A DNA stretch of 64,000 nt, taken from Prorocentrum cordatum. Taxonomy: Eukaryota. The stretch covers positions 1 to 64,000 of the forward strand of contig CAUYUJ010000061.1 in assembly GCA_963575745.1 (NCBI GenBank), written 5' to 3'. The notes under the pieces are model-generated. The model did no database searches. It saw only the letters and a list, made by a program, of their open reading frames with translations, and was not told the DNA's origin. This document shows, piece by piece, positions 19,106-64,000 of this stretch. The translations under genes were made by a program, and so were the position numbers. Position 1 is the first letter of the stretch; each line of letters starts with the position of its first letter.

Positions 19106-19141
<36 letters not shown>

Positions 19142-20191: not shown

Positions 20192-20223
<32 letters not shown>

Positions 20224-20630: not shown

Positions 20631-20661
<31 letters not shown>

Positions 20662-20782: not shown

Positions 20783-20813
<31 letters not shown>

Positions 20814-21270: not shown

Positions 21271-21306
21271 GGAAGCTCTACGAGGTGTCCGGCGGTAACC
21301 TGGTTG
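21271..21306 (+). other. Helentron 3' subTIR, left hairpin arm and loop (LINE target; right arm displaced to 27051-27083)
   Basis: GGAAGCTCTACGAGGTGTCCGGCGGTAACCTGGTTG matches intact ends such as 44419-44476. Confidence 0.9.
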
Positions 21307-21698
21307 TGCAGAGCTTACCTCCTGCTCAGCCTGGCCTCACCGCTGGGGTCCCCTCGTCTCGAGCTGCATTGTGCAGTAGGGAGTCTTCGGTTCCACATAC
21401 TGTACACGGAAGGCGGAAGCGCGGGAATCGAAATCTGGCGGGGCATTCCTTCACAACGTGGTTCCACATACTGTACACGGTGCTTCAGAGCCTGTTTTGC
21501 CTGAGTACCGCGGGTGCACATATCAGATTGTTTCTCCGTATTGCTCCAGTGGTGGGGAACTCTCAATACTTTGGGATTGATTCTTGCCAGAGCTTGTCAG
21601 TTTTGCTCCCTGTGCACATTTCTGTGGACTCTGTCACACGTGTGTTCATTGAAGTTGGCCACAATATACAACTCCGTCGCACGAGTGCCCATTAGAGT

Positions 21699-22820
21699 AT
21701 GGCGCTTCCAGTGTCGGGCAGCCGGCGCAAGAGAGAAGACGACGGGGCTGAGGGCATGGACGCTGAGAATGTACTAGATGCTGATATCCACGGATTGGCT
21801 TTTGATGAACAGAATCCCATGAAGCAATTCTTCGAACTGGGAAAGCAGCAACTGCAGCAGCAAAGAATTACTGACCGCAAGGTGACAGGCATGGTTAACG
21901 ATATGGCTACCATGCAACGACGGCAGGATAGTGCTGAACGACGAATGGCTGAAGGCCAGGCTCAGATGGATAAACGAATGACAGATCTTGAGAAGCAGGT
22001 CTTAGAGCTCAAGTCGCATACTGCTGCAGGTTCTGGGGCATCCACTGGTGCTACTTCTGCTGGCTTTGGGGGTGAGGCGACTTGGCCAAACGAGAGCAGG
22101 CGTCCATTCCGAGCCTTCAATCCAGAGTGGATCGATTTTCGTGGATGGGTGATTGACTGGAGTAATCCGATTCGACGGTCAGAGCAAATGATTTCAGATC
22201 GGGACGTGGGCATTCTCATTCACAACTTGAAGATGAGCCTTCCAGAGGATGACCGTGCGAAGATTGACGAGCTTGGTACGCTTCGTATGAATGGGAATCG
22301 TCCCAACTACGCAAACTTCCGCATCAAGTTTACCACTGGTACTGAGTCAGACGTACTCTGGAGGTGCAAAAAGTTTTGGGAAGAAGCTCTGATACCGCCT
22401 GAGGATCGAACTGAGGAGCAAAGGTCTCTTGCCCGTCCGACACCACAGGATCTTTTCAAAGACATGGACAACAGACCGTGTGCGGCTGGAGGCTCCATTC
22501 GGATCAAGACACAGGCACCGCCATGGAAAGAGGACCACATCAATGCTGTTGGCAGATTCCATGGTGTGTGGCGCGATACGGTCGTTGCGAGGAATCCTGA
22601 TACGCCAATGAAGATCAAGGGAGTGCCTGGGAGTGGAAAGGGGGTCAGTGTGATGTGGACCATTCCCCCATGTCTCCGTACCAAAAGAAGCATGGAGCTG
22701 GCCAAGTGGAAACAGGATACGGGCACTTGGACTGTTGATCAGACGGTCTGGAACGAAGTTGTCATGACATACGGCATCGCCACGACCCACAAAGAAATGG
22801 AGGATGCACTCGGACAATGA
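21699..22820 (+). CDS. LINE ORF1 protein (coiled coil + unknown globular domain), 373 aa
   Basis: ATG start; heptad-like N-terminal segment; blocks shared with family 2 ORF1 (NPMKQxF, FxP..GW, PWKxxHxxAVGR). Confidence 0.85.
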   Translation: MALPVSGSRRKREDDGAEGMDAENVLDADIHGLAFDEQNPMKQFFELGKQQLQQQRITDRKVTGMVNDMATMQRRQDSAERRMAEGQAQMDKRMTDLEKQVLELKSHTAAGSGASTGATSAGFGGEATWPNESRRPFRAFNPEWIDFRGWVIDWSNPIRRSEQMISDRDVGILIHNLKMSLPEDDRAKIDELGTLRMNGNRPNYANFRIKFTTGTESDVLWRCKKFWEEALIPPEDRTEEQRSLARPTPQDLFKDMDNRPCAAGGSIRIKTQAPPWKEDHINAVGRFHGVWRDTVVARNPDTPMKIKGVPGSGKGVSVMWTIPPCLRTKRSMELAKWKQDTGTWTVDQTVWNEVVMTYGIATTHKEMEDALGQ

Positions 22821-22844
22821 GGGTGCTGCGAGAGATCCAAAAGC

Positions 22845-25800
22845 ATGGCTCTCGCTACTCTCGCGGCAGGCACACTCAATGTTGCGAGAGCTGGGCGGCT
22901 CGAGTCTCGGGCGTACGCTATTCTACGAGCACTACATGGGGTAGGCTTAAATGTTGTGGCTTTGCAAGAATGTCAAAACGTGGACTTCAATGACACCTTA
23001 ATTCAGCGTCTGGGGTGGGATGCTGCTTCAAAAAGTACTTGCATGCGGGCAGCGGTGCTTCTCAAACGTCGCCACCTGCCCCACATGATAGCCTCTTATC
23101 AAGCAGATCGGGTTGCGATGATTGTTCATCGATCGGGAGTTTGTTTCACTAGTGCTTACTTTGCTGATGCGTCTCATCCAGATGCTCCAGAGATATGCAG
23201 ACGGATACTGCATGATGTACGCCGCCTGCACCGACAGGCTCAGGCCAACCATGGCCATCACTTTCGCCTGTTGCTTGCCTGTGATGCCAATGTGGAGCTC
23301 ACGCCAGAGTTGGAGGTGGATGGGAGGAGGGTGACGGGACCAGGACTCAGAAGATCGAGGGAGAGGGGACTTGGTCGGAACGGTGCCATCGATTTGGAGG
23401 ACAGGAGGGCCAAGGAGGTGTGCATGAGGGACCAGATTGAGGAGTTCTTGGAGGAGGAGGAGCTGGCTGCGATCAACACTTTTGAAGCACGGGTGCCGAC
23501 CTACTGGCACTTCGGTGAGAGTGAGCCCACAAAGGTTTTAGATTACATCTTGGCGCCCAGGCAGTGGACAGTAGAAGATATCTCGTACAGTTGGTTGCAG
23601 GACGGGCGTGTGGCACGTTTGAGCGATCATGCAGTAATCAAAACCCTGTTGGCCCCAAGGGAACCCCAGCAGATGTACCGACACAAGGTTGTTCGGCCAC
23701 ACGTCACGGCACGCCGGGCATTCGAGTCCCACAGAGAGGAGTTCTGTTTCAGAGCGTTGGTGGACATTGGTATTGAGGCCACACGCCCTGACGAGATCGC
23801 GAAGTCGTTGCATCAGCATGCGTTGCCTCTGCTTAACCCGCCTTCCTCTGCGCATCGTGCACATGCTAAGTCTAAAGAGCTAGCAGATCTTCAGCATCAG
23901 TATCGTGGAGCCCGTGGGAATCCTGATGAGAGAAAGCGCCTGAGGGAACTTATGAGGCCCCTGGTCAAGGCAGATAGGCGTAGTGAGATCGAGTATACCT
24001 TCGCGAACTCCCGCAAAAGCAAGAAAGTGAATGTCAAGTCTCTGAAGATCGACGGGGAGATGACGGAGGATCGTAAGAGGTGGGTGGAGGAGGGGATGAA
24101 GCAGCACAGCTTGAACACGATGACGAGCGAGGAGGAGAGGATGAGGAACAGCGAGCTGGTATCTGACTTACGGCGACGTGCACGAGCAGCTAGGGCACAC
24201 AGCAGCAGCAGTACGATGCACGACATGCGCATGCAGCTCACGATGGGGGTGGTGAACGAAGCACGTGCACGATTGCGATCTGGCAAGAGCTGCGGCCCAG
24301 ATGGGGTCAGCGTGGAGCTCTTGAAGGCTTTGGCGTGGCGAGCTGTTCGCCAGATTTTCCATGTGTTTCGAGATATCTTTCAAGGTGATCGTCGGTCACC
24401 TGACTGCTGGAGAGAGGTACTCATCACGCTGATGCCCAAGCTGATGAATCTTGATTCGCTCACACAAACACGCAATCTAGTTGTACAGAACACGTTAGGA
24501 AAATGGTACCTCACCTGTGTTACTATCCTTATCGAGAGGCATGCTGAACAGTACATGGGGCGATTGGGCTTGTATGGTTTCGCACAGGATCGGAGGACGT
24601 GGGAAGTAGCGGGACCCCTTAAGGCCATCTCACAGCATGCGAGTGTTTGGGGGAAAGATAGAAAAGCGTTCTTCTGTTCATGTGATATAGCACGAGCCTT
24701 CGACCATGTTAAGCTCACTACTTTGGCACGCGCGATGCACATGCTTAACATACCTGTACAGCTACAATATGCTCTGATCGAGCCCTTAACTGACACGACG
24801 GGCACGCTCACGTTCGAGGGCCTGGAGTTAGGTGGGGTACGATGGGATCGATCTCTCAGAACGGGGGGTACCGAGTCTCCCCTGTGCTTTAATTTGGTTG
24901 TGTTGGCCATGTGGGCGGAGGTCATACAGAGGTGGGATAATGAACGTATAGGTGTGGAGATCCCGTACAGCAACATGCACGACATGACGCGCGCACATGT
25001 TTACAATCATGCGATTTGGGCAGATAATATATATCTCGTGGCCAGTACATCGGCTCAGATGCAGCTGATGATCAACACACTCACTCACGCTTTACGTACA
25101 TGGGGACTAGAGTGGAAGTCAGATTCACTTGAATCGATGGTGGTGGGCGACCGCGATACCACTACTTTCTTCGCTGATATCCAGGGGGTGCAGGTCCCGT
25201 TCAAGTCAGTCTCTCAGCTGAATGTGTTGGGAACGATCGTCTCGCAGCAGTATGGGGGCACGCACGAGGACATACAATTTCGGGTTGAGTGTGCACGGCG
25301 CGCGTTTTATGGGCAAGCTAAGTATTATCGTTGTCGTGCTCTCCCTCTTCGTAAGCGGTATCGTCGGTATCAGAGCCTGGTACAGAGTGTATTAGCATAC
25401 GGATTGGATACATGTACGCTGGACCCTGAAGGTGTTCGATTGCTGCATACCTTTGAGGGCAGATGCCTGCTGGCCATGCATTGTCGAAGGAAGCCTGCGG
25501 GACAGAGATGGGAGGTCTGGAAGCCACATATGCTTGACACAGCGAGGGCTTCTTTCTGCTCGCTGGGATTTCCTAGCATCGTCCAGATCGTGGCGTGGAA
25601 GAGTTGGAGCGTCGCGCATTCGGTAAGCACGGCCTACGGCAATTTTGACTTCACAAATCCTGGGCCTCCCCGGTGGACAGGCCCAGGTTCAGGAGTAAGT
25701 TGTGAGGATGGGGTCTCGAGCGGCTCTCAGCAAAATGATGGCGCTGACGGCCGACGTGTTGTACGCAAGATTGAGCCACATCCTGATACCACGAGACGTG

Positions 25801-26867
25801 CATTTGTTGATTCTCGCACGGCATTGCTTTGTACACACAAGACTTGGGAAGCGCACCGCATGGCTCTCACTGAATGTCTCCGCTGTCATGGAGATCGTAG
25901 GCGTGCCTCTGAAGGCAAACGGCTGCGCGCGGGAGGAGATAGTGTTGGGCAGCGGTCTTGGCAGTACCCGTACATACAGACTCATGGGGATGAGTGGTGG
26001 GAGACCTTCCGACCAGGATATGCCACATTTCTGCAGACATGGGAAGCACTTTTACGCACGTATGGTAGGCCTAAGATATTCGAGTACTTCTGCACGAATT
26101 GGAAACAGGTACCAGGAGGAGATGTTGGGAGAGAGTGTAAGGAGGGAACTGGAAGGAACGAGGAGGCGACGGAGGAGGAGAACATGAAACAAGCAAGACG
26201 GTTGGCGATTATTAATGAACGGGAAGCTGTATTTGATATCATGTCGAACGGAGTTGGAATTGAGATCAAGGGAGACTCTTTGTTGGTCCAGAGCTGGCTT
26301 ACGGGACGTTGGCGTTGTCATAATCGTGCATATCGTGAGCGTGTACACAGGTGTGTCAATGACATGTACGCGCTTAGCCTTTCACACCGAGCACGGGCAT
26401 CGAACGTTGGGAGAGACATATTTGTACATGAATTTCGTGAAGCAAACACCCGAGCAGACGAACTTACTCATTTGGCCAGGGATGGCCACACATTTCATCA
26501 TAACTATTGCCATCGATATCCTTTCGAACGAGATTCTTTGAAGGTAGTCGCCTGTCGTGGAGGGTACGACGGGGGAGTGTGCAGCAAGGGCAGTGCATGC
26601 GGTTACTGGATGCAGGTTGGCTATCTCAACATGTCCTCACGGGCGTCTCGGCATGGAGTGTGTTCTACACGATACTCCCCCTACCCGACCTCTTCCTCTC
26701 TACATTATCATGCTGACACACCGTTGATTTGGAGAGACGCTGCTGCTGCGGCCTGGCTGGAGCCAGGCGCCACGATCACCGAATGTGAGTTGTCCGCTGC
26801 CGAAGCATTGACACGTGCCATACGCATACAGCTACAGCAATTTGATGACAGTGATTTTGCTTCTTGA
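22845..26867 (+). CDS. LINE ORF2: AP endonuclease, reverse transcriptase (WADN), permuted RNase H
   Basis: GTLNV, LQE, DAN, LDY, SDH (APE); GPDG, DIARAFD, RTGGTESP, WADN (25017-25028), LG (RT); GDS...NTRAD...YDGG...ECEL (RNase H). Confidence 0.93.
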   Translation: MALATLAAGTLNVARAGRLESRAYAILRALHGVGLNVVALQECQNVDFNDTLIQRLGWDAASKSTCMRAAVLLKRRHLPHMIASYQADRVAMIVHRSGVCFTSAYFADASHPDAPEICRRILHDVRRLHRQAQANHGHHFRLLLACDANVELTPELEVDGRRVTGPGLRRSRERGLGRNGAIDLEDRRAKEVCMRDQIEEFLEEEELAAINTFEARVPTYWHFGESEPTKVLDYILAPRQWTVEDISYSWLQDGRVARLSDHAVIKTLLAPREPQQMYRHKVVRPHVTARRAFESHREEFCFRALVDIGIEATRPDEIAKSLHQHALPLLNPPSSAHRAHAKSKELADLQHQYRGARGNPDERKRLRELMRPLVKADRRSEIEYTFANSRKSKKVNVKSLKIDGEMTEDRKRWVEEGMKQHSLNTMTSEEERMRNSELVSDLRRRARAARAHSSSSTMHDMRMQLTMGVVNEARARLRSGKSCGPDGVSVELLKALAWRAVRQIFHVFRDIFQGDRRSPDCWREVLITLMPKLMNLDSLTQTRNLVVQNTLGKWYLTCVTILIERHAEQYMGRLGLYGFAQDRRTWEVAGPLKAISQHASVWGKDRKAFFCSCDIARAFDHVKLTTLARAMHMLNIPVQLQYALIEPLTDTTGTLTFEGLELGGVRWDRSLRTGGTESPLCFNLVVLAMWAEVIQRWDNERIGVEIPYSNMHDMTRAHVYNHAIWADNIYLVASTSAQMQLMINTLTHALRTWGLEWKSDSLESMVVGDRDTTTFFADIQGVQVPFKSVSQLNVLGTIVSQQYGGTHEDIQFRVECARRAFYGQAKYYRCRALPLRKRYRRYQSLVQSVLAYGLDTCTLDPEGVRLLHTFEGRCLLAMHCRRKPAGQRWEVWKPHMLDTARASFCSLGFPSIVQIVAWKSWSVAHSVSTAYGNFDFTNPGPPRWTGPGSGVSCEDGVSSGSQQNDGADGRRVVRKIEPHPDTTRRAFVDSRTALLCTHKTWEAHRMALTECLRCHGDRRRASEGKRLRAGGDSVGQRSWQYPYIQTHGDEWWETFRPGYATFLQTWEALLRTYGRPKIFEYFCTNWKQVPGGDVGRECKEGTGRNEEATEEENMKQARRLAIINEREAVFDIMSNGVGIEIKGDSLLVQSWLTGRWRCHNRAYRERVHRCVNDMYALSLSHRARASNVGRDIFVHEFREANTRADELTHLARDGHTFHHNYCHRYPFERDSLKVVACRGGYDGGVCSKGSACGYWMQVGYLNMSSRASRHGVCSTRYSPYPTSSSLHYHADTPLIWRDAAAAAWLEPGATITECELSAAEALTRAIRIQLQQFDDSDFAS

Positions 26868-27300
26868 TGATGTGTTATCCCTACGCCCTCCTGGGCTCGG
26901 GAATCGTCTTCAAGTTTAGCAATGTTATATGACACCTCAGCCCGCCTCCGTGGGTAGGTGCTCGTTTCACTGCTGCTCAGTTGCCAGGCTGCGTAGCTGA
27001 CACGGGCTGCGCTGAAGACCAGCGCCTCGCCAGCCCGCGTAAACACAAAAAACCAGGTTGACGGTTTACCGCCGGCGCCCAGTAATTCCGGGGAGCTGGA
27101 GAGCTAGTTGGCAACGAAAATCTCGACGGACCTTTTGCTGACTTTTGGTCGGTTGAAAATTTTGTTCGCGAAATTTGACCATTCGTTAGAGCTCTAGTAT
27201 TTTTCCCATGATATTCGATCTTATTCCCGCTCGCCATCTTGATCTCAGCTCGATCGGGTAACTTTGAAGGCCAAAAAGCAGGGGGGCGGGAACGGCCGTT

Positions 27301-28012
27301 TCGAGTCATCTTGATATGCGCTGACGGTTTTCTGAACATAACTCGAGCTCTAGGGCAGCTACAGAGCTGGTAAGCACAGCTAACTCATGCAGAATGATCA
27401 GGCGCGTTCGCCTGTTCAACCCAGAGGTCTGAACTCGGTCTGTCAGCTGAGCTAGGTTCGCAAACCTGTTTGTATTATTCGAGTCAACTTGACACGCGTT
27501 GTAGATATTTTCTACTTAACTCGAGCTATAGGGCAGCTACAGTGCCGGTGAGCACCCCTCTCGCTCTCAGAATGATCAGACGCGTTCGCCTGTTGAGTCC
27601 ATAGGTCTAAACTCGGTCTGCTAGCCGAGCTAGGTACGCAAACCTATTCGTATTATTCGAGTCAACTTGATACACGTTGTCGGTATTTTCCTCTTAACTC
27701 GAGCTGTAGGGCAGCTACCGCGCTGGTAAGCACCCCTATCGCACTCAGAATGATCAGACGCGTTCGCCTGTTGAATCCATAGGTCTAAACTTGGTCTGCT
27801 AGCCGAGCTAGGTGCGCAAACCTATTCGTATTATTCGAGTGAACTTGCTACGCGTTGTCGGTATTTTCCACTTAACTCGAGCTGTAGGGCAGCTACCGTG
27901 CTGGTAAGCACACCTACCGCACTCAGAATCATCAGGCGCGTTCGCCTGTTGAATCCAGAGGTCTGAACTCGGTCTGCTAGCCGATCGAGAATCACGAAAC
28001 TGTTCGTATTCT
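27301..28012 (+). repeat. 178-bp tandem repeat inside a type-A non-autonomous element (example; recurs through 27-62 kb)
   Basis: TCGAGT(C/G)A(T/A)CTTG recurs at 27301, 27479, 27657 and 27835 (period 178). Confidence 0.9.
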
Positions 28013-55325: not shown

Positions 55326-56664
55326 GGACGCGGAGCTTACCTCCCGCTCTCCCTCGGCCTTGTCCCGCCGGGGGGCTCTCTCGAGCTGCATTGTGCAGTC
55401 AGGAGTCTTTGGTTCCTCATACTGTACACGGTGCTCTCACTATGAGGGACGACGGCGGCGCCGCGTTGGCTGCTTCTCGTGTGGAGGCAGCGGTCCGCGC
55501 TGCTGTTCAGGCAGGTGCCCCGCGCAGGACTGTCGCAGCCGCCGCGGCTGCCGTGGCCTCGGTCATGGCGGCGACGCGGTGTGGCGTTGGTCCGGCGCAG
55601 GGCGCCCCTGATCCCGCTGCCGCCGGTTCGGCCGGATCCCGGCGGCAGCGGAGGAGGCTGAGGAAGAAAATTATGACGTGCAGGTCGGGGCAGGATGCTG
55701 TCCTCGGGGAGCCTGTCGGGCAGACCCTAAAGGCTGATCAGGATGTTGATCATGAGATATCTTGTTATCACAGGTCCAGTGTTGATCATGGCGCCTCTGA
55801 TTCTCATGTTGGGAGCTCGTCATCTAGGCGAGTCCAGTTTGATGATCGGTCTTCAGTGGTTTCTTATGAGATACCCCTTCAAGCAAGGCTGAGACCCATA
55901 TCGAGGAGGCCGAAGAAGAAAACTATGACTTGCAGGTCGGGGCATGATGCTGTCCTTGGGGAGCCTGTTGGGCAGACCCTAAAGACTCAGCGTGTTGATC
56001 ATGAAGTTGCGCACGTGGGTTCGCACGTTCCTGTTCCTGCTCAGACGGCAGCTGATGTGAAGATGTCGGAGTTGGAGAAGGATAACGAGGATAACATGCG
56101 GTGCTTACTACTTCAGACGATGCATAAGATGGATGACAATACTGAGAGGATCCAGGACGCCATAGTAGTTCAGGGTAGTAAAATCGATAATGTTCAGACC
56201 CAGGTACAGAAGCAGGGTGTTGCAATTTCCAATTTGGAGGCTAGACGAAATCAACTTGAGGCCTCCGTCCAGAGACTTCAGGGACTGGTGCGATCAGGTT
56301 CTGTGGCGAGTGCTGCGTCTACGAGGCCTGTGTCTACGAGACCTGCTAATACTATGCATTGCACCTGAGTATCTGCTGCCTGCCGCCGCCTCTCTTTGTT
56401 GCTTGCTTGTATTGTGTCACGTGCTTATTCAGTGAGACGGATTCAGAGACAGGTTTCATTCATTTTCTTGATTGTTTCGACGTGCTTGTTGATTGAGAAT
56501 TACGGTTGCCTCAAAGAGGTTCGATTGTATTTGATCTCAGTAATTTATTCTTCTTTTGACGATGAGCATACGTCTCTTGTCATGCCGCGGGTTGTCGTCC
56601 GCCCTTTACTGCTTCCGACTAGGCTGGAAAGCCTGCACAGTCGACCGCAAAGTCCGCAAAAACA
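55326..56664 (+). mobile_element. RT-less non-autonomous retroelement, copy 2 (full leader), with 9-bp TSD AAAGGTTGA
   Basis: Leader GCGGAGCTTACCTCC...GAGCTGCATTGTGCAG...CATACTGTACACGG is homologous to the LINE leader; TSD at 55317-55325 / 56665-56673. Confidence 0.88.
55442..56368 (+). CDS. 308-aa coiled-coil protein, copy 2
   Basis: Near-identical to 51211..52137. Confidence 0.55.
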   Translation: MRDDGGAALAASRVEAAVRAAVQAGAPRRTVAAAAAAVASVMAATRCGVGPAQGAPDPAAAGSAGSRRQRRRLRKKIMTCRSGQDAVLGEPVGQTLKADQDVDHEISCYHRSSVDHGASDSHVGSSSSRRVQFDDRSSVVSYEIPLQARLRPISRRPKKKTMTCRSGHDAVLGEPVGQTLKTQRVDHEVAHVGSHVPVPAQTAADVKMSELEKDNEDNMRCLLLQTMHKMDDNTERIQDAIVVQGSKIDNVQTQVQKQGVAISNLEARRNQLEASVQRLQGLVRSGSVASAASTRPVSTRPANTMHCT

Positions 56665-56728
56665 AAAGGTTGACGGTTTTTACCGCCGGCGCCCAGTTTC
56701 CCGGATAGCTCCTTGGAGAGCTGAGGGT

Positions 56729-58040
56729 AACTCGTAGAGCTTCCCTTAGCAAGTTATTGCTGGAAGCTTTAGAGTAATTCCGAGCGCTGGAGAGCTAGTT
56801 GGCAAGAAAAATCTCGACGGACCTTTTGGTGACTTTTGGTCGGTTGAAAATTTTGTTCTCGAAATTGACCATTCGTTTGAGCTCTAGTATTTTTTCCCGT
56901 GATATTCGATCTTATTCCCGCTCGCCATCTTGATCTCAGCTCGATCGGGTAGCTTTTACTGCCAAAAAGCACTCTGGCGGGAACGGCCGTTTCGAGTCAT
57001 CTTGATACGCCTTGTCGGTAGTTTGTACTTAACTCGAGCTGTAGACCAGCAACAGAGCTGGTAAGCACACCTTTCGCACTCAGAATCATTAACCGCGTTC
57101 GCCTGTTGAATCTAGAGGTCTGAACTCGGTCTGCTAGCCGAGCTAGGTCTGCAAATCTATTGGTATTATTTTGGTAATCTTGATAGACGCCCTCGGCTCT
57201 CTGTACTTAACTCGAGCTACAGGACAGCTACAGAGCTGGTAAGCACATCCATCGCATTTAGAATCATTAATCGCATTCGCTTGTTGGATCTAGAGGTCTG
57301 AACTCGGTCTGCTAGCCGAGCTAGGTCTGCAAGCCTACTTGTATTATTTGGGTCATGTTGATAGACGCCCTCGGTGCTCTGTACCTAACTCGAGTTACAG
57401 GACAGCTACAGAGCTGGTAAGCACGCCTATCGCATCCAGAATCATTAGGCGCGTTTACCTGTCCAATCTAGACGTCTGAACTCGTTCTGCTAGCCGAGCT
57501 GGGTCCGCAAAGATATTCGCATCATTTTGGTCATCCTCGTAGACGCCCTCGGTTTTCTGTACTTAACTCGAGCTCTAGTGCAGCTACAGAGCTCATAATC
57601 ACAGACATCGATTGGAAATCATCAGACGCGGTCGTGCGTCGGCTCGAGAGCTCTGGACTCGGCCTGCTGCCCGAGCTAGGTTCGCAAAACTATTCGTATT
57701 GTTCGAGTTATTCTAAGAAGTGCTCTCAGTATTCCGCACTTAACTCGTGCTGGGGAGGGCTACAGTACTGCTGGTCACGGAAATCGATTCTGAGACATCC
57801 GACGCGTCTGTCTGTCGAACCCAGAGCTCGGAACTCAGTCTGCTGCTCGAACTAGGTTCGCGAAACTATTGTATTATTGGAGTTGTTCGTTTTTTGTTAG
57901 AGTCATCTGGAGAGGTCTGAAATCGATTGGGCTGAAAAACTAGTCGTTCTTTCGATTTTCTTTCAAATCCCTACGAGTCAGGAAGCTCTACGAGTCCCCC
58001 GGCGGTAACAAAGGTTGACGGTTTACCGCCGGCGTCCAGT
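56729..58040 (+). mobile_element. Complete type-A non-autonomous element inserted at T^T in a type-C body
   Basis: The flanks AGGGT^TTCAG...AAGAAGCCGG are contiguous at ~47873-47893. Confidence 0.88.
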
Positions 58041-58345
58041 TTCAGGTAAGAAGCCGGCGGTGGGTGGTGAGGAGCACACGCCCACCTCCGCCGGTCCACG
58101 ATCGCCGGAGCAACTCGCCGGAACCAGCAGCGGGTCCGGGAGCGTGGCTTCCTAGCGTTTCCCAATACGCGTGGCTCCAGGGTGCGCGAAGCGCTCCGGC
58201 ACAGCTTCGGAAGAGCTTCGGCAGTTCTTCCAGGCTCCCAGGCAGATCTTCCTTGCGCGCTTTGCAGGGCCCCACGCATCGTAAACGACGCCCCTGCAAG
58301 CGTCTCCTGCGAGGTTTCCAGCGTCCCGCGCATCGTTTCAGGCGA

Positions 58346-60422
58346 ACTTGACCTCTGAATGCGACAAGCGGACGCGTCTGATCAGACCGAGTTCAGACCT
58401 CTCAATGCGACAGACGGACGTGTCTGATGTCTGCGAATCGACTCATGTGATTACCAGCCCTGCAGCCCCCCTACAGCCCGAGTTAAGTGCAGAACACCGA
58501 CAGCATCTCTCAGGATGACTCGAATAATATAATAGTTTTGCAGGCCTGTTTCGAGCAGCAGACCAACGAACGCGCCTGATGTGTGCAAATCGATTTCTAT
58601 AGCCCTCCCCCAGAACGAGTTGAGTGCAGAAAATTGAGAGCACTTTTCACGATGATTCGGACAATACGAATAGTTTCGAGAACCTAGCTCGGGCAGCAGG
58701 CCGAGTTCAGAGCTCTCGATACAACAGACAAACGCGCCCGATAATTCTCAATCGATTTCTGTGACTGTAGGCTCTTTAGCTGCCTACAGCTCGAGTTAAG
58801 TACAGAAAATCCTGAGAGCGTTTGTCAAGATAACTCGAATAATACGAATAGATTTGCGGACCTAGCTCGGCTAGCAGACCGAGTTAAGACCTCTGGAGTC
58901 AAGAGGCAAACGCGCCTGATGATTCTGAGTGCGATAGGTGTGCTCACCAGCACTGTAGCTGCCCTGCAGCTCGAATTAAGTAAAAAATACCCACCACGCG
59001 TATCAAGTTGACTCGAATCATACGAATAGGTTTGCGGACCTAGCTCGGCTAGCAGACCGAGTTCAGACCTGTGGATTCAACAGGCGAACGCGCCCGATGA
59101 TTCTGAGTGCGATAGGTGTGCTTACCAACACTGTAGCTGCCCTACAGCTCGAGTTAAGTAGAGAATACCGACAACGCGTATCAGGTTAACTCGAATAATA
59201 CGAATAGATTTGCGGACCTAGCTCGGCTAGCAGACCGAGTTCAGACCTGTGGATTCAACAGACGAACGCGCCTGCTGATTCTGAAAGCGATAGGTGTGCT
59301 TACCAGCACTGTAGCTGCCCTACAGCTCGAGTTGAGTAGAGAATACCGACAACGCGTATCAAGTTGACTCGAATAATATGAATAGGTTTGCGGACCTAGC
59401 TCGGCTAGCAGACCGAGTTCAGACCTATGGTTTCAACAGGCGAACGCGCCTGATGATTCTGAGTGCGAGAGCTGTGCTTACCAGCTCTGTAGGTGTCCTA
59501 CAGCTCGAGTTAATTACAAAATACCGACAACGCATATCAAGATGACTCGAAACGACCGATCCCGCCAGTGTGCTTTTTGGCAGTAGAAGGTACCCGATCG
59601 AGCTGAGATCAAGATGGCGAGCGGGAATAAGATCGAATATCACGGGAAAAAATACTAGAGCTCTAACGAATGGTCAAATTTTGAGAACATAATTTTCAAC
59701 TGAGCAAAAGTTGTGAAAAGTTCAGTTCTTTTTTTTCGAGCCAACTAGCTCTCCAGCGCGCCGGAATTATTCTTAGCTTCCAGCTATATCTAGCTAAGGG
59801 AAGCTCTACGAGTTACCTTTGTTACCGCCGGGGGACTCGTAGAGATTCCTGACAGAATATAATGTGGGAAGAAATTCCAGAGAACAACTAGTTTTGAGCC
59901 CAAGCGATTTCAGACCTCTCAAGATGACTCTGACAAAAAAACGAACAGTTTGGCAACCCAGCTCGAGTATCAAACCGAGTTCAGACCTCTGAATGCGACA
60001 GGTGGACGCGTTTGATGTCCGCGAATCGACTCCTGTGATTACCAGCCTGCAGCCCCCCAACAGCCCGAGTTAAGTGCAGAAAACCGACAGCAGCTCTCAG
60101 GATAACTCGAATGATACAATAGTTTGGCGGGCCTAGTTCGAGCAGCAGACCGAGTTCCGAGCTCTGGGTTCGACAGACGGACGCACTTGTTGTCTCCAAA
60201 TCGATTTCTGTGACCAGCAGCACTGTAGCCCTCCCCCAGCACGAGTTAAGTGCAGAAAACCGAGAGCACTTTTCAAGATGACGTGAACAATACGAATACG
60301 TTCGTAAACCTAGCTCGGGCAGCAGGCCGAATTCAGAGCTCTCGATTGGACAGACGAACGCGGCTGATGATTCCCAATCGATCTAGGTCACTATCAGCTC
60401 TGTAACTGCCCTACAGCTCGAG
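58346..60422 (-). mobile_element. Inverted block of two type-A elements, one inserted in the hairpin loop of the other
   Basis: Reverse-complement 178-bp units; the minus strand reads ...CCGGCGGTAACAAAGGT|AACTCGTAGAGCTTCC at ~59799-59850. Confidence 0.85.
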
Positions 60423-62671
60423 CGCTGTCGGTTTTCTCAAGTTAACTCGAGCTTCAGGACAGCTAGAGCCAGCTGTATGACAGTTACAGAGCTCATAATC
60501 ACAGACATTCCCGGAGAGCTCTCAGAGAGCTAGAGGGTGTTCGATTAGAAGCCGGACGGTGGTGGTGCCCGCCAGCAGCCCATCTCCGCAGGTCCACGAT
60601 CCCCGCAGCGCCTCGCCCGGCCCGGCAGCGCGTCCGCAGCAATGCAGGATCGCTTCAGAAAGGTTTCACAGAGCTCGTCGGGCGCCCCAGGGGGGTGTGA
60701 CAGAGCTCTGCAGGCAGGCACGCGTCCACGCGTGCCTGCACGCGTCCACGCGTGCCTGCACGCGTGCAGGCACGCAAGGGGGCGTGCCTGGCAGTGCTTT
60801 CGAAGCGCTTCCGGGAGCCCCCAGCAGCTCACAAGAAAAGATATCCTGCCCCGGAAGGTGTCTTCGCTCTTCGGATTTGGGACGCAGTACCTCGTAGAGC
60901 TCTTCGGCATCGATGAGCTAGAGGACTTCCGGGGCGGGGTGGAGCTAGTTGGCCCAGCCGGCCGAGGCGGACCATGTGACAATTTTTGGGTGGTTTTACG
61001 AAAATTTGAAAGATATTTGGCCGTTTATTTTGAAAAAGCAGATTTTTACGCCGAGCATTGGCATATGAACTCCTCTTTGACAGCAGCTCAGCTCTCTCGA
61101 TGCATATTTGCATAAGTTGACTTCCCGGAACTGAGCGAATATCAACATCGAAAAAATCGAATTTCAAGATTTTCGAAAAATCTTCATTTTTTTAGTCTGT
61201 GTCGATTCTCTGCACTTTTACTAGTGAGAGGAGCTCTACGAGGTTCCCGGCGGTGACCAGGTTGACGGTTCACCGCCGGCGCCAGTAACTCGTAGAGCTT
61301 CCCTGAGAGCGCAGCGGCGAAGCTTGACTCGTAGACCTTCCCTAAGCTAGTTGCTGGAAGCTTAAGAGTAATTCCGGGGCGCTGGAGAGCTAGGTGGCAA
61401 GAAAAATCTCGACGGAACTTTTGGTGACTTTTGGTCGGTTGAAAATTTTGTTCTCGAAATTCAACAATTCGTTAGAGCTCTAGTATTTTTTCCCGTGATA
61501 TTCGATCTTATTCCCGCTCGCCATCTTGATCTCAGCTCGATCGGGTGAATATTACTATCGAAACGCACTCTGGCGGAATCGGCCGTTTTCAGTTATCTTG
61601 ATACGCGCTGACGGTTTTCTGAACATAACTCGAGCTGTAGAGCAGCTACAGAGCTGGTGAGCACAGCTAATCAATCTAGAATAATTAGGCGCGTTCGCCT
61701 GTCTAATTTAGAGGTCTGAACTCGGTCTGTGAGCCGAGCTAGGTTCGCAAACCTATCCGTAGTATTCGAGTCATTTTGACAGAAACTCTCGATTTTCTAT
61801 ACTTAACTCGAGCTGTATGACAGCTACAAAGCTGATGTTTACAGAAACTGATTCAGAATCGTCAGTTGCGTTTGTCCGTCGAATCCAGAGCCCTGAACTC
61901 GGTCAGCTGCCCGATCTAGACTCGCGAAATTGTTCGTATTGGTCGAGTCATCTTGATAGATGCTCTCGGTTTTCTTCACTGAACATGCGCTGAGAGCAGG
62001 CTACAGTTCTGGTTCTCACATGAATCGATTCGAAGAGATCATGCGCGTCCGTCTGTCGAATCCAGAGCTCGAGACTTGGTCTGCTGCCCGAATTAGGTCT
62101 GCGAAACTATTGTATTGTTCGAGTCATCCTGAGAGATGCTCTCGGTTTTCTGTACTTAACTCGGGCTGTAGGGGGGCTCCAGCGCTGGTAATGACAGGAG
62201 TCGATTCGCAGACATGAGACGCGTCCGCCTGTCGCATTCAGAGGTCAAATAATATTCACTATAAGTCAGAATGTTGGTAGGTGCTGTCGGTTTTCTCAAC
62301 TTAAGTCGAGCTAGGAAGCTCTACGAGTTCCCCGGCGGTAACCTGGTTGAGCAGAGCTTACCTCCTGCTCAGCCTGGCCTCACCGCTGGGGCCCCCCTCG
62401 TCTCGAGCTGCATTGTGCAGTAGGGAGTCTTCGGTTCCACATACTGTACACGGTGCTTCAGAGTCTGTTTTGCCTGAGTACCGCGGGTGCACATTTCAGA
62501 TTGCTTCTCAGTATTGCTCCAGTGGTGGGGAACTCTCAATACTTTGGGATTGATTCTTGCCAGAGCTTGTCAGTTTTGCTCCTTGTGCACTTTTCTGTGG
62601 ACTCTGTTACACGAGTGTTCATTGAGGTTGGCCACAACATACAACTCCGTCGCACGAGTGTCCATTCGAGT

Positions 62672-63793
62672 ATGGCGCTTCCAATGTCGGGCAGCCGTCG
62701 CAAGAGGGAAGACGAGGGGGCTGATGACATGGACGCTGAGAATCAACTAGATGCTGATATCCACGAATTGGCTTTCGACGAAAAGAATCCCATGCAACAA
62801 TTCTTCAACATGGGGAAAGCGCAACTGCAGCAGCAAAGAATTACTGACCGCAAGGTGACAGGCATGGTTAATGATATGGCTACCATGCAACGGCGGCAGG
62901 ACAGTGCTGAACGACGAATGGCTGAAGGCCAGGCTCAGATGGATCAACGAATGACAGATCTTGAGAAGCAGGTTTTGGAGCTCAAGTCTCATTCTGCTGC
63001 AGGTTCTGGGGTATCCACGGGTGCTACTTCTGGTGGCTTTGGGGGTGAGGCGACTTGGCCAAACGAGGCCAGGCGTCCATTCCGAGCCTTCAATCCAGAG
63101 TGGATCGATTTTCGTGGATGGGTGGTCGACTGGAAGAATCCGATTCGACGGTCAGAACAAATGATTTCAGATCGTGACGTTGGCATTCTCATTCACAACT
63201 TGAAGATGAGCCTCCCAGAGGATGACCGTGCAAAGATTGATGAGCTTGGCACGCTTCGTATGAATGGGAATCGTCCTAACTTCGCAGACTTCCGCATCAA
63301 GTTTACCACTGGTACTGAGTCAGACGTGCTCTGGAGGTGCAAAAAGTTTTGGGATGAAGCTCTGATCCCGCCTGAGGATCGAACTGAGGAGCAAAGGTCT
63401 CGAGCCCGTCCGACGCCACAGGACCTTTTCAAAGACATGGACAACAGACCGTGTGCGGCTGGAGGCTCCATTCGGATCAAGACACAGGCACCGCCATGGA
63501 AAGAAGACCACATCAATGCTGTTGGCAGATTCCATGGTGTTTGGCGCGATACGGTCATTGCGAAGAATCCTGAAACGACAATGAAGATTAAGGGAGTCCC
63601 TGGGAGTGGAAAGGGGGTCAGTGTGATGTGGACCATTCCCCCATGTCTCCGTACCAAAAGAAGCATGGAGCTGGCCAAGTGGAAACAGGATACGGGCACT
63701 TGGACTGTTGATCAGACGGTCTGGAACGAAGTTGTCATGACATACGGCATCGCCACGACCCATAAGGAAATGGAGGATGCACTCGGACAATGA
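62672..63793 (+). CDS. LINE family 1 ORF1, copy B (373 aa)
   Basis: Colinear with 21699..22820; many differences are synonymous. Confidence 0.87.
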   Translation: MALPMSGSRRKREDEGADDMDAENQLDADIHELAFDEKNPMQQFFNMGKAQLQQQRITDRKVTGMVNDMATMQRRQDSAERRMAEGQAQMDQRMTDLEKQVLELKSHSAAGSGVSTGATSGGFGGEATWPNEARRPFRAFNPEWIDFRGWVVDWKNPIRRSEQMISDRDVGILIHNLKMSLPEDDRAKIDELGTLRMNGNRPNFADFRIKFTTGTESDVLWRCKKFWDEALIPPEDRTEEQRSRARPTPQDLFKDMDNRPCAAGGSIRIKTQAPPWKEDHINAVGRFHGVWRDTVIAKNPETTMKIKGVPGSGKGVSVMWTIPPCLRTKRSMELAKWKQDTGTWTVDQTVWNEVVMTYGIATTHKEMEDALGQ

Positions 63794-63817
63794 GGGTGCT
63801 GCGAGAGATCCAGAAGC

Positions 63818-64000
63818 ATGGCTCTCGCTACTCTCGCGGCAGGCACACTCAATGTTGCGAGAGCTGGGCGGCTCGAGTCTCGGGCATACGCTATTCTACG
63901 AGCACTACATGGGGTAGGCTTAAATGTTGTGGCTTTGCAAGAATGTCAAAACGTTGACTTCAATGACACCTTAATTCAGCGTCTGGGGTGGGATGCTGTT
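63818..64000 (+). CDS. LINE family 1 ORF2 N-terminus (APE), partial
   Basis: Begins MALATLAAGTLNV...LQECQN as in copy A. Confidence 0.87.
   Translation, partial: MALATLAAGTLNVARAGRLESRAYAILRALHGVGLNVVALQECQNVDFNDTLIQRLGWDAV

What the first reader, a model, noticed from the sequence alone, without database searches (positions are those of the whole stretch)
21271..64000. Retrotransposons that target the loop of a Helentron 3' terminal hairpin (hyperparasite system)
Seen: all five retro-insertions (21308, ~34503, 51178, 55326, 62351) lie in the same motif, subTIR-CCGGCGGTAA-loop-TTACCGCCGG-CGCCCAGT, in the same orientation. The four visible 3' junctions resume at the start of the loop and the three intact 5' junctions end at GGTTG(A), so the TSD (9-10 bp visible) roughly equals the loop. 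Two diverged LINE families and an RT-less element share the site even though the loop varies (CCTGGTTG vs GAAAGGTTG). About 20 more copies of the hairpin are empty. Known: Tx1-clade APE LINEs can be site-specific, including for another transposon; I do not know of a case targeting a rolling-circle element's terminal hairpin. Inference: the APE recognises the arms or a cruciform, and the LINE uses a self-amplifying target while splitting the hairpin of its host.
Basis: partly seen in the sequence, partly recalled or inferred. Interest (0 to 1): 0.93.

Follow-up and report, generated by a model that had tools for sequence, protein, structure and literature searches.

The report
LINEs inserted in Helentron hairpin loops
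Two distantly related LINE retrotransposon families and a short non-coding-for-RT relative have each landed, five times out of five, in the loop of the same small terminal hairpin of a rolling-circle transposon (Helentron), which looks like a retrotransposon lineage that specialises in parasitising another transposon.

Summary
The window carries the 3' part of an autonomous Helentron (1-21306), with a helicase, an AP-endonuclease and a UCH protease. It is followed by a dense array of non-autonomous copies, and all end in subTIR, 10-bp stem, loop, stem, CGCC(C)AGT.

I found 19 intact empty hairpins, 1 degenerate one, 1 interrupted by another Helentron copy, and 5 split by poly(A)-tailed retroelements. 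LINE-derived DNA occurs nowhere else in the 64 kb.

The five are separate integration events. Host subfamilies, 5' junctions and downstream flanks differ, two insertions are 5'-truncated, and the LINE A copies are 95% identical. All four visible 3' junctions sit at the arm/loop boundary. All three intact 5' junctions sit at GGTTG(A)^CGG, giving 8-10 bp duplications. All five share one orientation.

LINE A and LINE B ORF2s are only 26% identical. Both have a divergent AP-endonuclease, an RT and an RNase H-like tail.

Most likely this is a target-specific APE-type LINE lineage aimed at a conserved Helentron terminal hairpin. The closest precedent is Tx1L in the Tx1D transposon.

Three things are not shown: genome-wide exclusivity (no genome held), the LINE clade, and whether sequence or a cruciform is recognised.

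Verdict: a new variant of a known kind, of moderate to high interest.

The parts
1..21306 (+). 3' part of an autonomous Helentron. Its 5' end lies outside the window. It holds a long ORF and (GT)n microsatellites at 18.4-20.9 kb, then the 3' subTIR, left hairpin arm and loop.
   Evidence: Pfam, in this order: DUF6570, Helitron_like_N (weak, E 0.025), PIF1, Exo_endo_phos (2.5e-13), UCH (3.4e-15). Microsatellites. Terminus.
5631..17999 (+). Helentron Rep/helicase-AP endonuclease-UCH open frame (4122 codons, stop to stop)
21274..21306 (+). 3' subTIR AGCTCTACGAG, left arm CCGGCGGTAA (21289-21298) and loop copy CCTGGTTG (left duplication of event 1)
21308..27052 (+). LINE A, full length (5745 bp). 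5' UTR, ORF1 21699-22817, TGA, ORF2 22845-26864 in the same frame, 3' UTR, A6 tail.
27053..27083 (+). Loop copy CCAGGTTG (right duplication), ACGGT, right arm TTACCGCCGG and Helentron terminus CGCCCAGT
27084..64000 (.). Array of non-autonomous Helentron copies (HINE-like) of several subfamilies, with 175-178-bp internal tandem repeats. Nearly all are + oriented; a minus-strand block lies at about 58.3-60.4 kb. It holds 19 intact empty hairpins, whose left arms start at 28236, 29253, 30132, 31133, 32371, 32675, 33141, 33995, 42932, 44151, 44436, 46306, 47708, 48524, 49075, 50062, 53402, 57999 and 61247.
34477..34502 (+). Event 2, 5' side: left-arm remnant CCGGC plus 21 nt of filler that repeats the sequence just upstream
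34503..40415 (+). LINE B, 5'-truncated by about 50 nt relative to LINE A (5913 bp). ORF1 frame 34821-36014, TGA, ORF2 frame 36015-40193, (CTCAAA)n then A5 tail.
40416..40446 (+). Loop CCTGGTTCACGGT, right arm TTACCGCCGG and terminus TTCCCAGT after LINE B
51179..52432 (+). Short RT-less element, 5'-truncated copy (1254 bp). Its junction CCCCCGG|TGGTTCC carries a 6-bp target deletion.
52433..52464 (+). Loop GAAAGGTTGACGGT, right arm and terminus after the short element
55306..55325 (+). Left arm and loop copy GAAAGGTTGA (left duplication of event 4)
55326..56662 (+). Short RT-less element, full length (1337 bp). The first 105 nt are 81% identical to LINE A. One ORF (ATG 55442; about 308 codons) has a C-terminal coiled-coil-like stretch. 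A5 tail.
56663..56697 (+). Loop copy (C)AAAAGGTTGACGGTTT, right arm and terminus (right duplication of event 4; shared AAAGGTTGA)
62332..62350 (+). Left arm and loop CCTGGTTGA (event 5)
62351..64000 (+). Second LINE A copy (5' 1650 bp; runs off the window). 95% nt identity to copy 1, and it lacks copy 1's internal 5' UTR duplication.
59807..59840 (-). Minus-strand left arm and CAAAGGT, directly joined to a HINE 5' end (AACTCGTAGAGCTTCC...). This is a Helentron copy inserted at the TT of another copy's loop.

Best explanation
A lineage of AP-endonuclease (APE)-type non-LTR retrotransposons is target-specific for the 3'-terminal hairpin of a very abundant Helentron/HINE family. The lineage comprises LINE A, LINE B and probably a third, unseen LINE that mobilises the short ORF1-only-like element.

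**Proposed mechanism.**
1. The element's endonuclease nicks the bottom strand at the boundary between the left arm and the loop (5'-...CAACC(A/T)GG^TTACCGCCGG-3').
2. The poly(A) RNA is reverse-transcribed from that 3'-OH (target-primed reverse transcription).
3. The top strand is cut 8-10 nt downstream at GGTTG(A)^CGG. This produces the loop-sized duplication.

**What is recognised.** Recognition uses asymmetric sequence: the conserved loop core GGTTGAC and, for LINE A/B, the CCTGG loop variant. It may also use the stem.

**Consequences.** The hairpin of the host copy is split, and the LINE gains a multicopy target that is harmless to genes.

**Status of each step.**
- Shown: element identities, junction positions, duplications, orientation, and independence of the events within this window.
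- Inferred: the order of nicking, that the LINE's own endonuclease confers the specificity, and that the preference holds genome-wide.
For: 1. **Site use.** All 5 of 5 LINE-derived segments in 64 kb lie in the hairpin, and none lies elsewhere.
   - 4 of 4 visible 3' junctions are at the arm/loop boundary.
   - 3 of 3 intact 5' junctions are at GGTTG(A)|.
   - 5 of 5 share one orientation.
   - The chance estimate is about 5e-15 for four events.
2. **Independent events.**
   - The LINE A copies differ by 5% in nt and 7% in ORF1 residues. They sit in different host subfamilies with different 5' junctions.
   - The two short elements have different 5' junctions and different downstream flanks.
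3. **Canonical TPRT hallmarks.** These are poly(A) tails, 8-10 bp duplications, and 5' truncation with filler or microdeletion.
4. **An endonuclease is present.**
   - The N-terminal domain has a weak Pfam Exo_endo_phos hit.
   - Its profile hits exonuclease III (E 0.006).
   - N, E, Y, D, D and DH are invariant across five family members, and the DH lies in a (S/R)DH motif.
5. **Shared site over deep divergence.** LINE A and B share the site although their ORF2s are only 26% identical (359 of 1376).
6. **A stable target.** The loop core GGTTGAC is nearly invariant while the stems co-vary. This holds across 29 hairpins from this window and from contigs of an unrelated record.
   - 85.6% of cells are paired, against at most 46% when the partners are slid.
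   - 30 cells carry a double change, against 14.2 +/- 3.1 in shuffles; 0 of 500 shuffles reach that.
7. **Sequence discrimination.** LINE A/B sit 3 of 3 in CCTGG loops, a class of 5 among 26 sites (hypergeometric 0.004, post hoc). The short element sits 2 of 2 in GAAAGG loops (0.046).
8. **Precedent.** Tx1L's endonuclease targets the DNA transposon Tx1D (PMC1950540 and PMC6719617, passages read).
Against:
- **No genome-wide check.** No whole genome is held.
- **Unequal abundance.** In the contig lay-on, the Helentron-derived flank has roughly 2000-fold the summed depth of the LINE A body. Very few hairpins are therefore occupied, and LINE A may be low-copy.
- **Weak junction support from contigs.** Contigs that carry the LINE A 3' end run only 21-27 letters into the loop and arm. 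That is below the tool's 31-letter bridging rule. 534 loose-end rows were not shown.
- **Endonuclease not tested.** Its specificity was not tested, and a structural hot spot is not excluded.
- **Orientation is weak evidence.** With n=5 the orientation argument is weak (1/16).
- **Loop-class test is post hoc.**
Confidence: 0.7

Rival explanations
1. Structural hot spot rather than sequence-specific targeting. The palindrome extrudes as a cruciform or forms a hairpin on single-stranded DNA during replication or Helentron rolling-circle transposition. Any LINE endonuclease or reverse transcriptase then preferentially uses the exposed loop, so the LINEs themselves are not specialised.
For: - The hairpin is stable as single-stranded DNA (-11.3 to -14.5 kcal/mol; z -2.3 to -4.0).
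- Three different retroelements use it.
- A Helentron copy also inserted into a loop once.
Against: - Nick positions are exact on both strands and anchored to sequence. They sit at GGTTG(A)^CGG and at the arm boundary, and the duplication is 9 or 10 bp according to loop length.
- All five insertions have one orientation although the arms are a perfect palindrome.
- LINE A/B and the short element partition by loop variant.
- Both LINE families keep an endonuclease domain with conserved catalytic residues.
Confidence: 0.17
2. Few true integrations, multiplied afterwards. One or two LINE insertions into a Helentron copy were copied by Helentron transposition, tandem duplication or gene conversion in the array, so the 'five hits' are not independent.
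For: - The array is highly repetitive, with head-to-tail copies.
- The two short elements are 99.8% identical.
Against: - Each pair differs in junction structure. LINE A shows GGTTG-t|GCAGAGC against GGTTGA|GCAGAGC. The short element is full-length in one copy and 5'-truncated with a target deletion in the other.
- The pairs also differ in host subfamily and downstream flank.
- The LINE A copies are 5% diverged, and one has a 5' UTR duplication the other lacks.
- LINE A, LINE B and the short element are three different elements.
Confidence: 0.05
3. Insertion at breaks made by the Helentron's own machinery. The Rep or the Helentron-encoded AP endonuclease cuts at or near the terminal hairpin during transposition, and LINE reverse transcriptases prime from those nicks.
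For: - The Helentron encodes its own AP endonuclease, whose role is unknown.
- Thomas et al. 2014 hypothesise that it makes a nick for transposition (PMC4067079, passage).
Against: - Endonuclease-independent LINE insertions typically lack duplications and poly(A) tails (established knowledge, recalled). Here both are present and regular.
- The LINEs keep their own endonuclease.
- Most occupied hairpins belong to non-autonomous copies.
Confidence: 0.08

Closest known systems
Tx1L / Tx2L of Xenopus laevis, APE-type LINEs of the Tx1 clade that insert at one sequence inside the DNA transposons Tx1D / Tx2D
   Same: - An APE-type LINE whose only known target lies inside another, multicopy transposon.
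- Fixed position and orientation.
- An endonuclease thought to carry the specificity.

Source: PMC1950540 and PMC6719617, passages read.
   Different: - The target here is the terminal hairpin loop of a rolling-circle Helentron, a cis-element the host transposon probably needs. It is not an internal repeat of a presumed cut-and-paste element.
- Two families at 26% ORF2 identity, plus an RT-less element, share the site.
- Clade membership could not be tested. The endonuclease profile found no LINE endonuclease in the PDB, only exonuclease III.
R1/R2 and other LINEs specific for multicopy genes or repeats (rDNA, snRNA genes, telomeric and microsatellite repeats)
   Same: - The strategy of living in a conserved multicopy target.
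- Old lineages keep one site while their proteins diverge.

[quoted passage not shown]
   Different: - The target is a selfish element rather than a host gene.
- No 5' ribozyme was detected (Rfam).
- The elements have poly(A) tails and no read-through of target sequence.
Helentrons and their non-autonomous HINE / DINE-1-like partners (Thomas et al. 2014)
   Same: The host element matches the described anatomy:
- Rep/helicase fused to an AP endonuclease.
- SubTIRs 2 nt from the 5' end and about 46 nt from the 3' end.
- A short palindrome 8 nt from the 3' end.
- Internal tandem repeats and microsatellites.
- T at the flanks.

   Different: - It carries a UCH-type protease domain in the long frame. 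The paper mentions OTU proteases.
- It is very GC-rich (about 68%) compared with its non-autonomous copies (about 50%).
HAL1-type ORF1-only LINE derivatives (listed among human L1-clade repeats in PMC5753468; their nature is recalled)
   Same: - The short element has a LINE-like 5' UTR, one ORF, no RT, a poly(A) tail and target duplications.
- It uses the same site.
   Different: - Its ORF shows no blastp similarity to ORF1 of LINE A or B.
- Its 3' end differs from both LINEs, so its autonomous partner is not in the window.

Membership tests
Helentron / HINE (host element) | Rep/helicase protein with a C-terminal AP endonuclease domain | tested here: met
   PIF1 2e-11 and Exo_endo_phos 2.4e-13 in one frame, in the expected order. 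The Rep (Helitron_like_N) hit is only weak (E 0.025, below Pfam's cut-off).
Helentron / HINE (host element) | 12-15 bp subterminal inverted repeats, 2-4 nt from the 5' end and about 38-60 bp from the 3' end (PMC4067079) | tested here: met
   5' (T)|AA-CTCGTAGAGCT(TCC) and 3' (GGA)AGCTCTACGAG. The 3' subTIR ends 46 nt before the terminus in the copy at 28221-28277.
Helentron / HINE (host element) | Short palindrome 8-35 bp from the 3' terminus | tested here: met
   A 10-bp stem lies 8 nt (CGCCCAGT) from the end. Covariation is shown.
Helentron / HINE (host element) | Insertion next to T / between T and T | tested here: met
   Of the 15 matches to the 5' subTIR listed, the 13 that are element 5' ends are all preceded by T. 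The other two rows, at 59836 and 61328, follow a hairpin arm and a partial copy. All 3' ends read ...AGT. Empty pre-insertion sites were not available.
Helentron / HINE (host element) | Internal tandem repeats or microsatellites | tested here: met
   175-178-bp repeats in the non-autonomous copies, and (GT)n in the autonomous copy.
APE-type non-LTR retrotransposon (LINE A, LINE B) | Reverse transcriptase of the LINE type | tested here: met
   RVT_1 at 1.2e-10 and 2.2e-09. The best PDB match is the human L1 ORF2p core 8c8j (2.3e-10). 1308 library proteins score E<=1e-10.
APE-type non-LTR retrotransposon (LINE A, LINE B) | N-terminal AP-endonuclease-like domain with catalytic residues | tested here: met
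   Weak but consistent. Exo_endo_phos 0.0019 in LINE A and 5.1e-05 in relative P0012. The profile hits exonuclease III at 0.006. N, E, Y, D, D and DH are invariant, the DH within a (S/R)DH motif.
APE-type non-LTR retrotransposon (LINE A, LINE B) | Poly(A) tail, target-site duplication, variable 5' truncation | tested here: met
Tx1 clade (target-specific L1-like LINEs) | Placement within the Tx1 clade in an RT phylogeny with reference elements | not testable with these tools
   No labelled LINE reference set is held.
Tx1 clade (target-specific L1-like LINEs) | Insertion at one defined sequence in one orientation | tested here: met
   5 of 5 within this window. Genome-wide use was not tested.
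R1 clade (target-specific APE LINEs) | Placement within the R1 clade; endonuclease related to R1Bm/TRAS1 EN | tested here: inconclusive
   The endonuclease profile search of the PDB at E<=10 listed exonuclease III family chains only. This is a sequence search of a very divergent domain, so it excludes nothing.
ORF1-only non-autonomous LINE derivative (short element) | Shares its 5' end with a LINE and lacks RT | tested here: met
   The first 105 nt are 81% identical to LINE A. Its single ORF has no RT.
ORF1-only non-autonomous LINE derivative (short element) | The ORF is homologous to ORF1 of the partner LINE | tested here: not met
   There is no blastp similarity to ORF1 of LINE A or B. The partner may be a family not present in the window.

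The most novel reading that the evidence does not exclude
This would be an old LINE lineage that is an obligate parasite of Helentrons.

- It recognises the Helentron's own termination hairpin, through the conserved loop core GGTTGAC and possibly the extruded or single-stranded hairpin form.
- It has kept that site while its proteins diverged to 26% identity.
- It cripples the host copy's 3' signal while using the Helentron's amplification to multiply its targets.
- The insertions are in sense orientation, just downstream of the Rep/helicase frame. [quoted passage not shown]
Probability: 0.2. Interest if true: 0.85.

Novelty: new variant of a known kind. Interest (0 to 1): 0.62.

Why it matters
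**A new class of target.** Target-specific LINEs are known for rDNA, small RNA genes, telomeric and simple repeats, and for one class of DNA transposon (Tx1D). A LINE lineage aimed at the terminal hairpin of a rolling-circle transposon would add a new class of target. It would also be a clear case of one selfish element specialising on a functional cis-signal of another.

**An experimental handle.** The target is a defined 33-nt sequence with natural stem and loop variants. It could be used to ask how a very divergent AP endonuclease reads sequence versus DNA structure.

**A link to Helentron origins.** It offers a concrete model for how Helentrons could have acquired their endonuclease domain.

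**Not found in print.** Five full-text searches found no report of LINEs targeting Helitron or Helentron hairpins. Subscription-only papers and Repbase Reports are not covered by that library.

Tried and rejected
**Wider context**
- No whole genome is held for the window.
- Our own earlier findings held nothing by place, words or sequence.

**RNA families**
- Rfam at gathering thresholds found nothing in the window.
- A permissive scan of the LINE A 5' region gave only a chance-level lncRNA row, so no ribozyme was found.
- The consensus fold of the shared 5' UTR of three copies had 0 of 29 pairs with compensatory change.

**Protein relatives and names**
- The word-based protein search with LINE A ORF2 found none at E<=1e-3.
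- A 26-sequence profile gave 6 unnamed proteins.
- The protein atlas was busy, then did not hold the sequences.
- So no organism or clade names were obtained.

**Public contig scans**
- Metagenome contigs: the protein profile gave 194 pattern matches, and none was confirmed.
- Metagenome contigs: the shared 5' UTR motif gave 0 matches.
- Viral contigs: the hairpin core gave 0 matches.
- Genome contigs: there were 3 loci. Two are real relatives of the hairpin in one record. One (L002) is a chance match in a coding-looking region.
- That record holds no relative of the LINE.

**Sequencing runs**
- No RNA holder is listed among the 24 runs.

**Contig lay-on**
- No listed piece spans the whole stretch.
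- Contigs crossing the LINE A 3' junction reach only 21 (X1) and 27 (X3) letters beyond it, below the 31-letter rule.
- The listed loose ends at 21306 are empty hairpins.
- 534 loose-end rows were not shown, so alternative flanks can neither be seen nor excluded.

**Other comparisons**
- The Helentron endonuclease and the LINE endonucleases share only family motifs (E 0.003 and 0.21 over 20 and 9 residues). The LINEs here are therefore not the donors of the Helentron's domain.
- Pfam on ORF1 of LINE A, LINE B and the short element gave only coiled-coil-like noise.

**RNase H side question**
- Foldseek had no match at E<=0.001.
- VIA-align gave RNase H1 chains only at Z 3.7-4.2, covering the first half of the model.


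Full report
**1. What the window is**

Bases 1 to about 21300 are very GC-rich (0.59-0.75 per 2 kb, mostly about 0.68). The rest is about 0.48-0.54.

The GC-rich part holds a stop-free frame at 5631-17999 (4122 codons). Pfam finds these domains in it, in this order:
- DUF6570.
- A weak Helitron_like_N (Rep) match (E 0.025, below Pfam's cut-off).
- PIF1 helicase (2e-11).
- Exo_endo_phos AP endonuclease (2.4e-13).
- A UCH protease (6.5e-16).

Long (GT)n tracts follow at 18.4-20.9 kb. Then comes the terminus ...GGAAGCTCTACGAGgtgtCCGGCGGTAA-loop.

From 27 kb to the end lies a dense array of non-coding copies with 175-178-bp internal tandem repeats. Each copy begins (T)|AACTCGTAGAGCTTCC... or (T)|ACCTCGTAGAGCTCTTC.... 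Each ends ...AGCTCTACGAG-nnnn-CCGGCGGT(A/G)A-loop-T(T/C)ACCGCCGG-CGCC(C)AGT.

These features are the ones Thomas et al. 2014 give for Helentrons and their non-autonomous HINE/DINE-1-like partners (PMC4067079, passages read):
- SubTIRs 2 nt from the 5' end and about 46 nt from the 3' end.
- A short palindrome 8 nt from the 3' end.
- Central repeats and microsatellites.
- T at the flanks.
- A helicase fused to an AP endonuclease.

**2. The hairpin is a real, conserved element**

The exact motif occurs 14 times, against 0 in 100 shuffles. With one mismatch allowed in the loop core there are 19 intact hairpins and 4 right halves in the window. There is also one degenerate copy near 41545.

As single-stranded DNA the hairpin folds at -11.3 to -14.5 kcal/mol (z -2.3 to -4.0).

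A scan of prokaryote genome records for the loop core plus right arm found two contigs of one metagenome-assembled record (L001, L003). These are presumably stray eukaryotic contigs. A search of that record found 17 matches on four contigs, and I counted 28 distinct hairpins there.

Those copies have a related subTIR (CTCTACGAG) and different stems (mostly CGAGCGG/CCGCTCG). They keep the same inner pairs AAACC/GGTTT and the same loop (A/T)GGTTGAC, but have another terminus (TTGCCAT).

I aligned 29 hairpins that were in register: 7 of the 19 from the window and 22 from the other record. The 12 window copies with a one-base-longer loop were left out because they fall out of register in an ungapped alignment. 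The results:
- The 12-pair stem is 85.6% paired, against at most 46% when partners are slid.
- 30 cells have changes on both sides, against 14.2 +/- 3.1 in shuffles (0 of 500 reach it).
- The loop columns GGTTGAC are invariant or above 90% conserved.

So the stem is kept by compensation and the loop by sequence. That is what one expects of a cis-signal read by the Helentron's own proteins.

**3. The five insertions**

A blastn of LINE A, LINE B and the short element against the whole window finds LINE-derived DNA at five places only. All five lie in hairpins and all are on the + strand, like the hairpins. Junctions were read and re-printed.

- **Event 1, LINE A, 21308-27052.** Left flank ...CCGGCGGTAA CCTGGTTG, then an extra T. 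Right flank A6|CCAGGTTG ACGGT TTACCGCCGG CGCCCAGT. The 8-bp duplication has one mismatch.
- **Event 2, LINE B, 34503-40415.** The 3' junction is precise (A5|CCTGGTTCACGGT TTACCGCCGG). At the 5' side the left arm stops after CCGGC, followed by 21 nt of filler that repeats the sequence just upstream. The LINE lacks about 50 nt of its 5' end.
- **Event 3, short element, 51179-52432.** It is 5'-truncated, joined at CCCCCGG|TGGTTCC, with 6 bp of target lost. The 3' junction is A6|GAAAGGTTGACGGT.
- **Event 4, short element, 55326-56662.** It is full length. Left ...GGTAA GAAAGGTTGA|, right A5|CAAAAGGTTGA CGG.... The shared duplication is AAAGGTTGA.
- **Event 5, second LINE A, 62351 to the window end.** Left ...GGTAA CCTGGTTGA|GCAGAGC.

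All four visible 3' junctions therefore fall at the boundary between the left arm and the loop. All three intact 5' junctions fall at GGTTG(A)|CGG. The duplication is 8-10 bp and follows loop length.

With 26 hairpin sites in 48,101 non-LINE bases, a random insertion hits that position and strand with p of about 2.7e-4. Four such hits give about 5e-15.

**4. The events are independent**

LINE A copies 1 and 5:
- They are 95% identical in nucleotides and 93% in ORF1 residues.
- They differ by an internal 5' UTR duplication.
- They sit in different host copies: the autonomous element with ...GAGGTGT-CCGG, against a HINE with ...GAGTTCC-CCGG.
- They have different 5' junctions.

The short elements:
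- They are 99.8% identical.
- One is full length with a duplication, and the other is truncated with a target deletion.
- Their downstream flanks differ.

LINE A and LINE B are different families. ORF2 is 26% identical over 1376 aligned positions and ORF1 is 24%. Copying of one or two events by array duplication is therefore not a sufficient explanation.

**5. What the inserts are**

LINE A and B:
- Both have ORF1, a single in-frame TGA, then ORF2.
- ORF2 has an RVT_1 match (1.2e-10 and 2.2e-09). Its best solved relative is the human L1 ORF2p core 8c8j (2.3e-10).
- The N-terminal 270 residues are a very divergent AP-endonuclease-like domain.
  - Pfam Exo_endo_phos scores 0.0019 in LINE A and 5.1e-05 in the relative P0012.
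  - A five-member profile hits exonuclease III at 0.006.
  - N, E, Y, D, D and DH are invariant, and the DH sits in a (S/R)DH motif.

Relatives in the protein library:
- An exhaustive profile search of 1.84 billion representatives gave 7309 hits at E<=1e-3 and 69 at E<=1e-30.
- The best full-length ones (P0003, P0004) are only 33-34% identical to LINE A. So there are further families of this lineage.
- One 263-residue fragment (P0005) is identical to LINE A.
- None carries a name, and the look-up that might have given names was unavailable.
- I could not place the lineage in a LINE clade. No labelled reference set is at hand.

The short element:
- It shares its first 105 nt with LINE A at 81% identity. 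It also shares the block CTCGAGCTGCATTGTGCAG...GGTTCC(A/T)CATACTGTACACGG with both LINEs.
- It encodes one protein of about 308 residues with a coiled-coil-like C-terminus. That protein shows no detectable similarity to ORF1 of A or B.
- It has a different 3' end.
- It looks like an ORF1-only or deletion derivative of a third family that is not in the window.

**6. How it most likely works**

The hallmarks of target-primed reverse transcription are all present: poly(A), regular duplications, 5' truncation, filler and microdeletion at 5' junctions.

Reading the junctions in the usual way gives the following. This is inference from the established TPRT model.
- First cut, on the bottom strand: 5'-...CAACC(A/T)GG^TTACCGCCGG-3'. 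Two bases further is also possible, since the target's AA cannot be told from the tail.
- Second cut, on the top strand: GGTTG(A)^CGG.

Both positions are anchored to conserved sequence. The spacing changes with loop length (9 bp in CCTGGTTGA loops, 10 bp in GAAAGGTTGA loops).

The two arms are a perfect palindrome, so arm recognition alone would allow both orientations. All five inserts have the same orientation, which points to the asymmetric loop or the flanks as part of the recognised site (weak, n=5).

A further hint of sequence reading comes from loop class:
- LINE A/B are in CCTGG-type loops 3 of 3 times, although that class is 5 of 26 sites (hypergeometric 0.004).
- The short element is in GAAAGG loops 2 of 2 times (6 of 26; 0.046).
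- These tests are post hoc and small.

I cannot tell whether the enzyme sees duplex DNA, a cruciform or a hairpin on single-stranded DNA. A structural hot spot remains the main rival (about 0.17).

**7. Evidence from outside the window**

The stretch 21200-27200 is held, at least in part, by 20 listed public runs of 13 studies. They carry coded organism labels, marine metagenomes and one freshwater metagenome. The organism is presumably an aquatic protist.

I laid the contigs of four runs on 21000-27400:
- The LINE A body is covered in all four. Summed word depth is about 90-280 in X1 and about 3-30 in the metagenomes.
- The Helentron-derived flank at 26992-27400 has about 2.4-3.5e5 in X1. That is roughly three orders of magnitude more.
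- So hairpins vastly outnumber LINE A copies, and only a tiny fraction can be occupied.
- Many contigs join the left arm directly to the right arm (empty sites).
- Contigs with the LINE A 3' end continue into the loop and right arm for 21 letters (X1) and 27 letters (X3, a copy with 10 differences in 539). Both are under the tool's 31-letter rule.
- No loose end at a LINE terminus is among the 24 listed, but 534 rows were not shown.

This is compatible with a constant flank but does not prove it. Scans of JGI metagenome contigs and of viral contigs found nothing. The record with the related hairpins has no relative of the LINE.

**8. Comparison with what is known**

The closest precedent is Tx1L, whose highly specific endonuclease directs it into the DNA transposon Tx1D (PMC1950540, passages). 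A review cites it as a case of transposons preferring other transposons (PMC6719617, passage).

Five full-text searches found no report of a LINE that targets a Helitron or Helentron hairpin. That library lacks most subscription journals and Repbase Reports.

What is new:
- The target is the terminal hairpin of a rolling-circle element, with its loop sequence conserved between organisms.
- At least three retroelement families use it.

What is not new is the principle of a site-specific APE LINE living inside another transposon. Hence 'new variant of a known kind'.

One further link is worth noting. [quoted passage not shown] Here LINEs insert in sense orientation just downstream of the Rep/helicase frame, which is the geometry such a capture needs. 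However, the LINE endonucleases in this window are not specially similar to the Helentron's.

**9. Verdict**

The Helentron and LINE identifications are supported.
- Target specificity is strongly supported within the window, untested genome-wide.
- The recognition mechanism is inferred.
- Confidence in the main explanation is 0.7.

Noticed in passing
window 26178-26864 (LINE A ORF2 C-terminus); 39597-40190 (LINE B): The C-terminal domain carries the RNase H catalytic motifs in a permuted order. GDS and R..N..AD.L come first, then DGG..G.G and (T)E.EL. All four acidic residues are invariant in six family members. AlphaFold gives a confident model (pLDDT 81.7, pTM 0.79). Only its first half (residues 15-106) aligns to the C-terminal two thirds of RNase H1 chains, at 23-29% identity and Z 3.7-4.2 (Foldseek rows). 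It is possibly a circularly permuted RNase H. This is not shown.
   Followed up: partly
window 59807-59840, minus strand: A non-autonomous Helentron copy's 5' end (AACTCGTAGAGCTTCC...) is joined directly to ...CCGGCGGTAACAAAGGT. That places it between the two T's of another copy's hairpin loop. So the loop's TT has also been used once as a Helentron insertion site. The matching right half is not in the window.
   Followed up: partly
window 22818-22847 and 36012-36035: In both LINE families ORF1 ends in TGA and ORF2 continues in the same frame. LINE A has an in-frame ATG 24 nt downstream. In this LINE B copy the only nearby ATG is one base out of frame, so it has either a frameshift or stop read-through.
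   Followed up: no
window 21360-21409, 34503-34555, 55381-55431, 62402-62453: A block of about 50 nt in the 5' UTR is nearly identical in LINE A, LINE B and the short element, although their proteins are 26% identical or unrelated. The block reads CTCGAGCTGCATTGTGCAG..GGAGTCTT.GGTTCC.CATACTGTACACGG. This suggests a shared promoter or exchange of 5' modules. A fold of three copies showed no compensatory changes, and there was no Rfam match.
   Followed up: partly
window 21308-21322 compared with 46348-46365: The first bases of LINE A (GCAGAGCTTACCT) resemble the Helentron 5' subTIR (GTAGAGCTTCCCT). This may be chance.
   Followed up: no
window 46340-46365, 61280-61300, and 5' ends listed: Some Helentron copies abut head to tail (CGCC(C)AGT|AACTCGTAGAGC). 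Many others start at different internal positions of the 5' region, right after a neighbour's 3' end. The pattern fits rolling-circle read-through or repeated insertion into the same region.
   Followed up: no
window 679-6291 and 15,700-16,600: A second long frame (1870 codons, no Pfam match) overlaps the start of the Helentron frame by about 660 nt. The Helentron also carries a UCH-type ubiquitin hydrolase domain, whereas the literature reports OTU proteases.
   Followed up: no
L001, L003, L008, L009, L014, L018 (contigs of one metagenome-assembled 'Nitrospinota' record): Four short contigs of a bacterial MAG are packed with Helentron-type 3' ends (28 distinct hairpins). They are therefore probably eukaryotic contamination of that bin.
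   Followed up: partly
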